Assembly (NCBI RefSeq): GCF_003334355.1
Contig: NZ_QOWP01000034.1
Length of the DNA stretch: 37,733 bases
Direction: 5' to 3' (one strand)
DNA from: Escherichia coli
GTDB lineage: Bacteria; Pseudomonadota; Gammaproteobacteria; Enterobacterales; Enterobacteriaceae
Made by a program: the position numbers and the translations under genes. Of this stretch, positions 7,427-19,231 are shown piece by piece. The first letter of the stretch is position 1. Each line of letters starts with the position of its first letter. The notes beneath the pieces are model-generated. The model did not search any database. It was not told the DNA's origin and saw only the letters and a program-made list of their open reading frames with translations.

Positions 7427-7444
7427 CCCGCACTCGCGGGTTTT
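7427..7444 (+). terminator. Short GC hairpin plus T-tract after dosP (CCCGC-ACTC-GCGGG-TTTT)
   Basis: Read from the sequence, 14 nt after the dosP stop. The stem is only 5 bp, so strength is modest. Confidence 0.55.
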
Positions 7445-7610
7445 CATTTAACGTGACACTGTCACTTAAATACTGTGATTTCAGCTACGATTCCGGGAGA
7501 TTCCTTCCTTAACTTCCCCTCTTGCACCAAAACTGCACTACGCTGCACAAATGTTGATCAAAAGTTAAAAAATATAACTTTAAGCCAGCATTCTGGCGCT
7601 TATCCCGGCA

Positions 7611-18064: not shown

Positions 18065-18349
18065 ATGAAAATGGCCAATCATCCCCGCCCGGGGGACATT
18101 ATTCAGGAATCACTGGACGAACTTAATGTCAGCCTGCGCGAGTTTGCCAGAGCAATGGAAATTGCTCCCTCAACGGCAAGCCGATTGCTGACAGGAAAAG
18201 CAGCTTTGACGCCAGAAATGGCGATTAAACTTTCCGTGGTGATCGGCAGTTCGCCGCAAATGTGGCTGAATCTGCAAAACGCCTGGAGTCTGGCAGAGGC
18301 AGAAAAAACAGTGGATGTGTCGCGATTACGCCGTCTGGTTACGCAATAA
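18065..18349 (+). CDS. yddM: HigA-family antitoxin-like HTH (XRE) DNA-binding protein, apparently solitary
   Basis: 94 aa from ATG 18065 ([57 protein letters not shown]...). HTH architecture typical of HigA/VapI antidotes. No toxin-sized ORF in the 145-bp upstream gap. Confidence 0.8.
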
Positions 18350-18401
18350 AAAAATGGCACTTTATAAAGCGCCATTTAGAACTGATGACAAACGCAACAT
18401 T

Positions 18402-18499
18402 GCCTGATGCGCTACGCTTATCAGGCCTACACGTTCACTGCAATCTATTGGATTTGAAGGGTTTTTATGCCGGATAAGGCGTTCACGCCGCATCCGGCA
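18402..18499. repeat. BIME: two REP (repetitive extragenic palindromic) units, 18402-18430 and 18467-18499
   Basis: GCCTGATGCGCTACGCTTATCAGGCCTAC and ATGCCGGATAAGGCGTTCACGCCGCATCCGGCA. Near-identical copies recur at 35612-35640 and 35655-35687 in this window. Confidence 0.85.
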
Positions 18500-18529
18500 T
18501 GAACAAAGCCTACGTTGTCTACAATATGA

Positions 18530-18557
18530 AAATGGCGCCTTTTACAGCGCCATTTTC
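18530..18557 (-). terminator. 10-bp stem hairpin (AAAATGGCGC/GCGCCATTTT) downstream of fdnI, possibly bidirectional
   Basis: Perfect inverted repeat with AT-rich flanks, 21 nt past the fdnI stop on the minus strand. A related hairpin AAATGGC...GCCATTT lies at 18352-18378 after yddM. Confidence 0.65.
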
Positions 18558-18577
18558 AGCTTAAAGTTCAAAAGAGA

Positions 18578-19231
18578 TTATATCCCTTCTTCACTCTCTT
18601 TTTTCGCTTCTGCCTTCTCGATTTCACGATACCAGCGCGGATGGTGTTTCTTCGCCCAGCGACGACTTACCTTCCCTTCGATCATCCCTTTAATCGATCC
18701 TTTCACCCAAAATGCCATATACATATGGATCAGGATGGCGTGGATCAGGATGATGCCGGCAGCCGCGTGGATCAGCAGGCTGTAGCGAACAACCTGCATC
18801 GGGAAGTACTGCGCAAAGTACGGACGCCAGATAATCACCCCGGTCACCAGCAGCACGAAAATCATGCTCATGATCGACCAGAACATCATCTTTTGCCCGG
18901 CGTTGTACTTACCAACATCCGCCACTTTGTGCTCATTGCCTTTTAATACTTCGACAATGTTCAACAGCCACGGAATATCTTTCTTATCCGGGATGTTGTG
19001 ATGCACAAAACGCACAAACATAAACATCAGTGCGACGAAAATCGCAATGCCGAAGAACGGGTGCAAAATGCGTCCCATCTGCGGCGTACCGAAGGTTTGC
19101 GTCAGCCATTGCAGCGTCGGGAAGAAGAACGAAATCCCGGACAGCGCCACCAGGAAGAAGCAAATCACCACGGTCCAGTGACAGGCGCGATCAATAAATT
19201 TGGTGCGCACAATCATTTTCGACTTACTCAT
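18578..19231 (-). CDS. fdnI: Formate dehydrogenase-N gamma subunit (cytochrome b556)
   Basis: 217 aa from ATG at 19229-19231 ([20 protein letters not shown]...). Four transmembrane helices with conserved His. Start overlaps the fdnH 3' end by 8 nt. Confidence 0.92.

What the first reader, a model, noticed from the sequence alone, without database searches (positions are those of the whole stretch)
18349..18560. BIME (two REP units) bracketed by twin AAATGGC/GCCATTT hairpins, with a second near-identical BIME at 35612-35687
The yddM-fdnI convergent gap holds two REP palindromes flanked on each side by related hairpins (18352-18378 and 18530-18557). A near-identical REP pair recurs between yddE and nhoA. 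These are the only clear intra-window repeats. The flanking duplicated hairpins suggest the BIME inserted into, or duplicated, a pre-existing terminator.
Basis: seen in the sequence. Interest (0 to 1): 0.3.

Follow-up and report, generated by a model that had tools for sequence, protein, structure and literature searches.

The report
BIME-1 repeat flanked by duplicated terminator hairpin
A known 152-bp E. coli intergenic repeat (BIME-1) sits in the terminator hairpin shared by yddM and fdnI, with a full copy of that hairpin on each side; the same footprint at five other loci hints at how these repeats insert.

Summary
Hairpin H1 (18352-18377) and hairpin H2 (18527-18558) flank a complete 152-bp BIME-1 (18378-18529). 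It consists of an outer flank, a Z1 REP, a 34-nt L linker, a Y REP and a second outer flank.

The "second BIME" at 35610-35687 shares only the REP cores (94% and 97% identity). Its linker is 12 nt, and it has no outer flanks and no flanking hairpins.

- E. coli genomes without the BIME are exactly 178 bp shorter and carry one hairpin.
- A cryptic Escherichia clade, Citrobacter and Salmonella also carry one fdnI terminator hairpin.
- E. albertii has the doubled form.
- Among 5,426 complete E. coli genomes, about 42% have no unit. About 56% have at least one unit, and at least 1,241 of those (K-12 included) carry two or more tandem 178-bp units.

The pattern is general. BIME-1 ends abut a hairpin foot in 11 of 14 loci, against 1.6% of random positions. 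At five other convergent gene pairs, filled alleles carry the hairpin on both sides and empty alleles carry it once. The duplicated length equals the hairpin length (20-29 nt).

I infer integration by staggered breaks at the two hairpin feet. I found no published description of this footprint, but the key 1997 paper was not readable.

The parts
18347..18349 (+). yddM (HigA-family antitoxin) stop codon, followed by the A-run that precedes H1
18352..18377 (.). H1, the left copy of the duplicated 26-nt terminator palindrome (one A-C mismatch on the + strand). On the minus strand it is followed by U7 and scores as terminator-like.
18378..18529 (+). Complete BIME-1 unit (152 bp). Its ends are defined by alignment to paralogs at uspB-pitA, entD-fepA and cueO-gcd.
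18378..18399 (+). BIME-1 left outer flank (AGAACTGATGACAAACGCAACA; family consensus GAGACTGATGACAAACGCAAAAC)
18400..18431 (+). REP / palindromic unit, Z1 type (TTGCCTGATGCGCTACGCTTATCAGGCCTACA)
18432..18465 (+). Long (L) linker of BIME-1. The IHF core is degenerate in this copy.
18466..18499 (+). REP / palindromic unit, Y type (TATGCCGGATAAGGCGTTCACGCCGCATCCGGCA)
18500..18529 (+). BIME-1 right outer flank (…ACAATATGA; family consensus …CAACAATCTGA)
18527..18558 (.). H2, the right copy of the duplicated palindrome (26-nt copy 18530-18555). It has a perfect 12-bp stem, and the T-run continues toward fdnI.
18578..18580 (-). fdnI stop codon
35610..35687 (+). Second REP pair between yddE and nhoA: Z1-like REP 35610-35641, 12-nt linker, Y REP 35654-35687. 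It has no BIME-1 flanks and no flanking hairpins, so it is not the same kind of BIME.

Best explanation
The segment is a BIME-1 element, also called RIP or RIB: a REP doublet Z1-L-Y with conserved outer flanks, 152 bp long. It integrated at the single bidirectional intrinsic-terminator hairpin shared by the convergent genes yddM and fdnI.

Integration duplicated the whole 26-nt palindrome. One copy (H1) stays with the upstream A-run next to yddM. The other (H2) stays with the T-run next to fdnI.

Inferred mechanism: the target was broken once on each strand, at the foot of the hairpin that each strand forms. The stagger therefore equals the hairpin length, and gap filling after joining copied the hairpin onto both sides. 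The most plausible enzyme is the hairpin-recognising REP-associated tyrosine transposase (TnpA-REP, also called RAYT). I could not test this.

After insertion, the two hairpin copies act as direct repeats. They drive gene conversion and unequal recombination, which gives alleles with one and two (or more) tandem 178-bp units in E. coli.

Inferred functional consequence: both mRNAs keep a terminator hairpin, and transcripts that pass the proximal copy carry the BIME-1 in their 3' UTR before reaching the distal hairpin with its U-run.
For: Shown at this locus:
- The anatomy and the repeat statistics hold.
- BIME-less E. coli alleles are exactly 178 bp shorter and carry one hairpin.
- Citrobacter, Salmonella and a cryptic Escherichia clade have a single conserved fdnI hairpin. 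E. albertii and a divergent 'E. coli' (L011) have the doubled form.
- The 152 bp between the hairpins is a full BIME-1. Paralogs are about 85% identical over query positions 3-151, and the alignment fixes both ends.
- In O157:H7 the two copies are identical, AAATGGCGCCTTTTACAGCGCCATTT on both sides.
- K-12 carries H1-BIME-H2'-BIME-H2. The K-12-type internal junction is present at >=99% identity in 1,241 genomes.

Shown at other loci:
- Filled alleles have the hairpin on both sides and empty alleles have it once at five convergent pairs: uspB-pitA (25 nt), aspC-gloC (about 20 nt), pbp4b/yfeW-yfeX (29 nt), yacH-lpdA (20 nt). ridA-mgtA has hairpins on both sides in the filled state.
- Left/right flank alignment scores are 15-26 at five loci, against a maximum of 10 in 210 permuted pairs.
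- The BIME-1 left end lies 0-3 nt from the 3' foot of a stem with at least 7 paired bases in 11 of 14 loci, against 1.6% of 36,000 random positions.

Folding: H1(-) -13.2 kcal/mol followed by U7, H2 -18.7 and -20.8, the single hairpin -16.2 and -17.3.
Against: - In the window, H1 and H2 differ at 4 of 26 positions. Each differs at 3 positions from the single hairpin of BIME-less alleles, so later divergence or gene conversion must be invoked.
- Relatives of the candidate enzyme (IS200/IS605 Y1 transposases) leave no target duplication (PMC3333891, PMC2817692).
- Roughly half of the full-length BIME-1 loci have a hairpin at only one end. At cueO-gcd the filled/empty comparison shows insertion at the hairpin foot without a duplicate.
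- Only the yddM-fdnI locus was polarised with outgroups. At the other loci the direction (insertion or excision) rests on parsimony.
- Termination and 3'-UTR effects were not measured.
Confidence: 0.85

Rival explanations
1. The doubled state is primary within E. coli, and the single-hairpin alleles are products of precise excision, by recombination or slippage between H1 and H2. On this reading the polymorphism reflects loss rather than retention of an uninserted allele.
For: H1 and H2 are direct repeats 178 bp apart, and the empty allele is exactly 178 bp shorter. Recombination between the copies does occur: there is a two-unit allele, and there are converted copies in O157 and B2 strains. 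According to citing papers, Bachellier et al. [quoted passage not shown] From memory, that paper's abstract speaks of 'excisions of a whole BIME-1'.
Against: All empty alleles I read (L001, L219, L003) share the loop GCGCTTCTTAAAGCGC with the cryptic-clade locus L007. That loop is not a single-crossover chimera of any H1/H2 pair seen. Outgroups show that one hairpin is ancestral. Even if some empties are excisions, the duplicate still had to arise at insertion.
Confidence: 0.08
2. BIME-1 inserts next to a hairpin on one strand without any duplication, as IS200/IS605-type elements do. The second hairpin copy arises later through an unrelated local duplication or recombination. It is kept by selection because the convergent partner gene would otherwise lose its terminator.
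For: cueO-gcd shows a hairpin-foot insertion without a duplicate. About half of the loci have a hairpin on only one side. All loci with duplicates whose flanking genes were identified are convergent pairs that share a terminator.
Against: At six loci the second copy begins exactly at the BIME-1 end (…CAATCTGA|hairpin) and spans exactly the hairpin, from 20 to 29 nt. Independent secondary duplications would not place their junctions so precisely or so repeatedly.
Confidence: 0.1
3. H1 and H2 are two independent terminators, one for each gene, that resemble each other by chance or convergence. The BIME simply lies between them.
For: Convergent genes often have their own terminators, and both hairpins fold stably.
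Against: The two copies are 82% identical over 34 nt in the window and 100% identical over 26 nt in O157. The motif is expected 0 times by chance. BIME-less genomes and outgroups have only one hairpin.
Confidence: 0.02

Closest known systems
BIME-1 (also called RIP or RIB elements) of E. coli: Gilson 1991, Bachellier 1994, Oppenheim 1993, Boccard & Prentki 1993, as summarised in PMC3333891 and PMC1187871
   Same: One Z1 and one Y palindromic unit in inverted orientation. A conserved long L linker. A total size of about 140-150 bp. An extragenic position at 3' ends of genes. Presence/absence polymorphism among strains.
   Different: The flanking duplicated target hairpin is not part of any definition I could read. 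This copy's IHF core is degenerate. BIME-1 is described as occurring in single copies, yet K-12 and at least 1,241 genomes carry two or more tandem units, each with an interleaved hairpin.
REPIN / RAYT (TnpA-REP) system and IS200/IS605 single-strand transposition
   Same: A REP doublet as the mobile unit. A hairpin-recognising HUH Y1 enzyme. Action on single-stranded DNA hairpins. An IS200C is inserted beside the same yddM-fdnI hairpin in some strains.
   Different: These systems are described as leaving no target duplication, and insertion of REPs in vivo is described as not established (PMC3333891; bioRxiv 10.64898/2026.03.23.713779). Here a duplication of the whole hairpin is seen.
Bacterial MITEs with target-site duplications
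   Same: Non-autonomous, about 150 bp, with imperfect terminal inverted repeats (…TGATGACAAA / TTTGTCAACA…) and flanking direct repeats of target sequence.
   Different: MITE duplications are short and of fixed length, set by the transposase. Here the length is 20-29 nt and equals the length of the local hairpin.
CRISPR spacer acquisition (Cas1-Cas2), a mechanistic analogy only, cited from general knowledge
   Same: Integration at both borders of an often palindromic repeat, one border per strand. Gap filling then duplicates the whole repeat on either side of the insert.
   Different: Unrelated enzyme, insert and biology. No evidence of any Cas involvement.
REP dimers 'inserted within' target palindromes in Thermomicrobium roseum and Halothiobacillus neapolitanus (Di Nocera et al. 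2013, PMC3733652)
   Same: REP doublets associated with a palindromic target sequence on both sides.
   Different: Those are described as a palindrome split by the insert, with one arm on each side. Here a complete hairpin stands on each side. Different species and REP families.

Membership tests
BIME-1 (RIP/RIB) | One Z1-type and one Y-type REP (palindromic unit) in inverted orientation | tested here: met
   REPs at 18400-18431 and 18466-18499 align column by column with BIME-1 copies at uspB-pitA, entD-fepA and cueO-gcd.
BIME-1 (RIP/RIB) | Conserved long (L) linker between the two REPs | tested here: met
   The 34-nt linker 18432-18465 aligns with the paralog linkers (…CTGCAATnTATTGnATTTG…).
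BIME-1 (RIP/RIB) | IHF binding site in the L linker | tested here: inconclusive
   No match to WATCAANNNNTTR with up to 1 mismatch inside 18432-18465. By eye this copy has 2 mismatches, and the family consensus itself has 1. Binding was not measurable.
BIME-1 (RIP/RIB) | Conserved outer flanks, giving a unit of about 140-150 bp | tested here: met
   Paralogs match query positions 3-151 of 18379-18529 at about 85% identity. The alignment fixes the ends GARACTGATGAC… and …CAATCTGA.
BIME-1 (RIP/RIB) | Occurs as a single copy per locus (PMC3333891) | tested here: met
   The window has one unit. K-12 and at least 1,241 other genomes carry two or more tandem units at this locus, which is an exception to this feature.
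Bidirectional intrinsic (Rho-independent) terminator (the hairpins) | G+C-rich stem-loop with an A-run upstream and a T-run downstream, between convergent genes | tested here: met
   Single ancestral hairpin AAAAAAATGGCGC…GCGCCATTTT, -16.2 and -17.3 kcal/mol. H1 on the minus strand scores as terminator-like.
Bidirectional intrinsic (Rho-independent) terminator (the hairpins) | Transcripts actually end there | not testable with these tools
   No 3'-end mapping data could be read. The supplement of PMC6061677 is not held.
IS200/IS605-like or RAYT-mediated single-strand transposition | No duplication of target sequence on insertion | tested here: not met
   The whole hairpin is duplicated at yddM-fdnI and five other loci. 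At cueO-gcd there is no duplicate.
IS200/IS605-like or RAYT-mediated single-strand transposition | Dependence on TnpA-REP | not testable with these tools
   Needs genetics or biochemistry.
Classical MITE | Short target-site duplication of fixed length | tested here: not met
   The duplicated length is 20, about 20, about 23, 25, 26 and 29 nt at six loci, tracking the hairpin length.
BIME-2 (for the second element, 35610-35687) | Y and Z2 REPs with a short S linker, in tandem multiples | tested here: inconclusive
   The linker is short (12 nt) and there is a single pair. The left REP is 94% identical to the Z1-type REP of the BIME-1. It fits 'atypical BIME' better, but I made no comparison with reference Z2 units.

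The most novel reading that the evidence does not exclude
BIME-1 is a structure-targeting mobile element. Each strand's 5' end is joined at the 3' foot of a terminator hairpin. When both strands are used, the whole hairpin is duplicated, so the target-site duplication has a length set by the local hairpin (20-29 nt) rather than by the enzyme. This would be a previously undescribed insertion footprint for the REP/RAYT system. It would explain why BIME-1 elements sit at 3' ends of genes and inside bidirectional terminators.
Probability: 0.45. Interest if true: 0.65.

Novelty: new variant of a known kind. Interest (0 to 1): 0.45.

Why it matters
How REP/BIME elements spread has been open for about 40 years. 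Recent papers still call the in vivo insertion mechanism unestablished and 'semi-random' (bioRxiv 10.64898/2026.03.23.713779).

This work gives that question a concrete, testable footprint:
- a reproducible target (the foot of a terminator hairpin);
- a duplication whose length equals the hairpin;
- natural filled and empty alleles at several loci.

It also bears on three other points.
- It explains how a 152-bp repeat can enter a shared terminator without leaving either convergent gene without a hairpin.
- It shows that the duplicated hairpins make the locus a copy-number polymorphism (0, 1 or 2+ units) in thousands of E. coli genomes.
- It provides isogenic-like natural variants for testing REP effects on 3' UTRs.

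If the footprint was already described in the older BIME literature that I could not read, the finding reduces to a well-documented example of a known element.

Tried and rejected
1. I rejected the 'CAATA' extension of the direct repeat (34 nt) as part of the duplication. It lies in the conserved BIME-1 right end. That end reads CAATCTGA in paralogs and E. albertii, CAATATGA in the window and CAATAAAA in a B2 strain. The resemblance therefore reflects drift or gene conversion, and the true duplicate is the 26-nt palindrome.

2. Rfam gave only sub-threshold hits to REP-derived families: naRNA4 at 35.7 bits against a gathering score of 59.5, and ES036/CssrF at 30.9 against 37.6. This adds nothing beyond 'it is a REP'.

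3. The NC_000913.3 annotation as held lists no repeat features in this region.

4. A viral-contig scan for the BIME-1 left end found nothing.

5. I looked for 3'-end mapping data for fdnI and yddM, but the supplement is not held.

6. Bachellier et al. 1997 (PMC1207841), the paper most likely to have described BIME-1 empty sites, is not held. Five full-text searches found no description of hairpin duplication.

7. The cysM-yfeS/yfeK BIME-1 locus is a variable gene junction and could not be read as filled versus empty.

8. Counting alleles by BLAST coverage was unreliable, because separate pieces are joined and the 40-piece limit was reached. I used junction-specific short queries and identity bands instead.

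9. The many nhmmer hits covering only profile positions 24-123 looked like a flank-less BIME-1 class. They are reverse-strand echoes of the same quasi-palindromic loci.

10. I considered that two independent insertions, one on each side of the hairpin, followed by recombination could produce hairpin-BIME-hairpin. I rejected this as very unlikely to recur at six loci.

Full report
**Observation.** The window is the E. coli adhP-yddM-fdnI region. RefSeq annotation under the BLAST hits names yddM and fdnI, and YddM matches the HigA family. Between the yddM stop codon (18347-18349) and the fdnI stop codon (18578-18580, minus strand) lie the following parts:
- H1, 18352-18377: AAATGGCACTTTATAAAGCGCCATTT.
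- Z1-type REP, 18400-18431.
- A 34-nt linker, 18432-18465.
- Y-type REP, 18466-18499.
- H2, 18527-18558, with a perfect 12-bp stem. Its 26-nt palindrome copy is 18530-18555.

The two hairpins form a direct repeat with 178-nt spacing. The hairpin motif occurs nowhere else in the 37.7-kb window, and none was expected in shuffles.

The REP pair between yddE and nhoA (gene identities) is 94% and 97% identical to these REPs. Its linker is 12 nt, and it has neither outer flanks nor hairpins. The recurrence is therefore of REP cores, not of the same BIME.

**What lies between the hairpins.** I searched 18379-18529 against 5,426 complete E. coli genomes. In genomes that lack the element at this locus, the best match is a paralog about 85% identical over positions 3-151. 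Aligning paralogs from uspB-pitA, entD-fepA and cueO-gcd shows conservation starting at GA(G/A)ACTGATGACAAACGC… and ending at …TTGTCAACAATCTGA. Outside those limits the sequences are unrelated.

The insert is thus a complete BIME-1 (RIP/RIB class) of 152 bp, 18378-18529. It fits exactly between the two palindrome copies. The 'CAATA' that seemed to extend the direct repeat belongs to the BIME-1 end. This copy's IHF core is degenerate.

E. coli is polymorphic at this locus.
- Empty alleles (L001, L219) are exactly 178 bp shorter. They carry one hairpin, AAAAATGGCGCTTCTTAAAGCGCCATTTT, flanked by an A-run on the yddM side and a T-run on the fdnI side.
- The window type has one unit.
- K-12 MG1655 has two tandem 178-bp units, H1-BIME-H2'-BIME-H2.
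- Some strains have IS200C inserted beside the single hairpin (L003).
- One allele has lost the right arm of the hairpin (L004).

Junction-specific searches give these counts:

| Allele | Count |
|---|---|
| Single-hairpin junction | 2,277 genomes |
| BIME-1 at this locus (>=90% identity) | about 3,031 records |
| Best match only a paralog | 2,438 records |
| K-12-type internal junction at >=99% identity | 1,241 genomes |

Outgroup sequence downstream of fdnI shows one hairpin in Escherichia sp. MOD1-EC7003. That hairpin is identical to the one in the E. coli empty allele. Many Citrobacter species and Salmonella enterica subsp. arizonae also have one hairpin. E. albertii and a divergent 'E. 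coli' (L011) have the hairpin-BIME-hairpin form.

One hairpin is therefore ancestral, and the doubled state is derived and old. All empty alleles I read share a loop (TTCTTAAA) that is not a crossover product of any H1/H2 pair seen. This argues that they are an old uninserted haplotype rather than recent excisions.

In O157:H7 the two copies are identical over 26 nt. In a B2 strain the BIME right end has been converted to the yddM-side sequence. The copies therefore exchange sequence.

**Generality.** A metagenome scan with the BIME-1 left-end pattern returned 120 contigs, and a profile search was run over all fetched DNA. Together they gave 15 full-length loci. The left-end hairpin test below used a 14-locus set from the pattern-based clustering of the same contigs.

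The BIME-1 left end lies 0-3 nt from the 3' foot of a stem with at least 7 paired bases in 11 of those 14 loci. The same is true of 1.6% of 36,000 random positions in the same contigs. Some other loci have the hairpin at the right end instead.

Left and right flanks are homologous well beyond permuted controls at five loci, with scores of 15-26 against a maximum of 10 in 210 permuted pairs. Two more loci are borderline.

| Locus | Duplicated length | Genomes with filled allele | Empty allele read |
|---|---|---|---|
| uspB-pitA | 25 nt | 1,940 | single hairpin |
| aspC-gloC | about 20 nt | 2,811 | single hairpin |
| pbp4b/yfeW-yfeX | 29 nt | 1,400 | single hairpin |
| yacH-lpdA | 20 nt | 494 | single hairpin |
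| ridA-mgtA | about 23 nt | 4,678 | no clean empty allele seen |
| cueO-gcd | none | 2,741 | single hairpin; insertion at the foot, with 5 nt replaced by 7 nt |

All duplicated loci whose flanking genes were identified are convergent gene pairs sharing one A-run/hairpin/T-run terminator. The duplicate spans the hairpin from foot to foot, so its length varies with the hairpin.

**How it most likely works.**

Shown: the element, its exact ends, the ancestral single hairpin, the recurrent foot-to-foot duplication, and the later recombination between the copies.

Inferred: the target was broken at the foot of the hairpin on each strand. Because the site is a palindrome, equivalent cuts on the two strands are staggered by the hairpin length. 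Joining of the element and gap filling then copy the hairpin onto both sides. Where only one strand is used, or one copy is later lost, the hairpin remains on one side only.

The natural candidate enzyme is TnpA-REP (RAYT). It recognises REP hairpins in single-stranded DNA and cleaves and recombines BIMEs in vitro (PMC3333891). However, its IS200/IS605 relatives leave no duplication, so this step is speculative.

Folding gives H1(+) -10.2 kcal/mol, H1(-) -13.2 followed by U7, H2 -18.7 and -20.8, and the single hairpin -16.2 and -17.3. I infer that both genes keep a terminator, and that read-through transcripts carry the BIME-1 in their 3' UTR. This agrees with reported REP roles as terminators and decay blocks between convergent genes (bioRxiv 10.64898/2026.03.23.713779). 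I could not read any 3'-end data for these genes.

**Comparison with what is known.** The element is an ordinary member of BIME-1. Presence/absence polymorphism of BIME-1 among strains is known (PMC1187871, citing Bachellier 1997).

I could not find three things in the searchable literature: the targeting of the hairpin foot, the hairpin-length duplication, and tandem BIME-1 units with interleaved hairpins. Reviews state that REPs lack MITE signatures (PMC3184786) and that IS200/IS605-type elements make no target duplication.

The nearest published remark concerns REP dimers 'inserted within' target palindromes in two unrelated species (PMC3733652). The 1997 Genetics paper on BIME polymorphism is not held, so I cannot exclude prior description.

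As an object this is a known repeat in the best-studied bacterium. The value lies in the insertion footprint, which recurs and is testable. Interest is moderate (0.45). Confidence in the core explanation is 0.85, and in the specific staggered-cleavage mechanism about 0.45.

Noticed in passing
L003:500-1210 (E. coli strain 47538; same site as window 18350): An IS200C copy is inserted between the yddM stop codon and the single terminator hairpin. On the minus strand that is directly after the hairpin plus its T-run. Two of 40 evenly spaced BLAST rows had this allele. A Y1-transposase element therefore uses the same hairpin as BIME-1.
   Followed up: partly
L002:1700-2107 (E. coli K-12 MG1655; equivalent to window 18350-18578): K-12 has two tandem 178-bp units (hairpin+BIME-1) where the window has one. 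The middle hairpin H2' is AAATGACGCCTTTTACAGCGCCATTT. BIME-1 is usually described as single-copy per locus. The internal junction is found at >=99% identity in 1,241 genomes, with up to 3 places per genome.
   Followed up: partly
L004:500-530 (E. coli strain HCP5S3_I2): This allele has the single hairpin but has lost its right arm (…aaaaaatggcgcttcttaaa|tcagctt…). That should disable the shared terminator.
   Followed up: no
L213:185-225 (cueO-gcd, E. coli AHB19): An internal deletion of most of the BIME-1 between two GGCATGAA repeats (hairpin end plus BIME start, and REP-Y end). Only the right outer flank is left, as a solo remnant.
   Followed up: no
L161 and L113 (metagenome contigs, entD-fepA BIME-1): A foreign sequence (tgaactgaaccccaaaacctggacagtttcagttaaccgg…) interrupts the Y REP in its loop. 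From memory, IS1397-type elements insert specifically into REP loops. I did not identify the insert.
   Followed up: no
L007:3155-3600 (Escherichia sp. MOD1-EC7003): This Escherichia lineage has no yddM next to fdnI. A different gene on the opposite strand abuts the same single hairpin. The hairpin is thus conserved while its neighbour changes.
   Followed up: no
L023, L025, L026 (Citrobacter youngae and C. gillenii group), downstream of fdnI: A lone REP-like palindrome (…gtaggc(c/t)g(g/a)ataa…ccggca…) sits between yddM and the single fdnI hairpin. The same intergenic region has therefore acquired REPs independently in Citrobacter.
   Followed up: no
window 18423-18504: Sub-threshold Rfam matches to REP-derived sRNA families: ES036/CssrF on the linker (30.9 bits, gathering score 37.6) and naRNA4 on the Y REP (35.7 bits, gathering score 59.5).
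   Followed up: no
window 7440-7470 and 33745-33775: A 31-nt inverted repeat pair (77% complementary) containing GTGACACTGTCAC / GTGACAGTGTCAC palindromes, 26 kb apart. It may be a shared operator-like site or may be chance.
   Followed up: no
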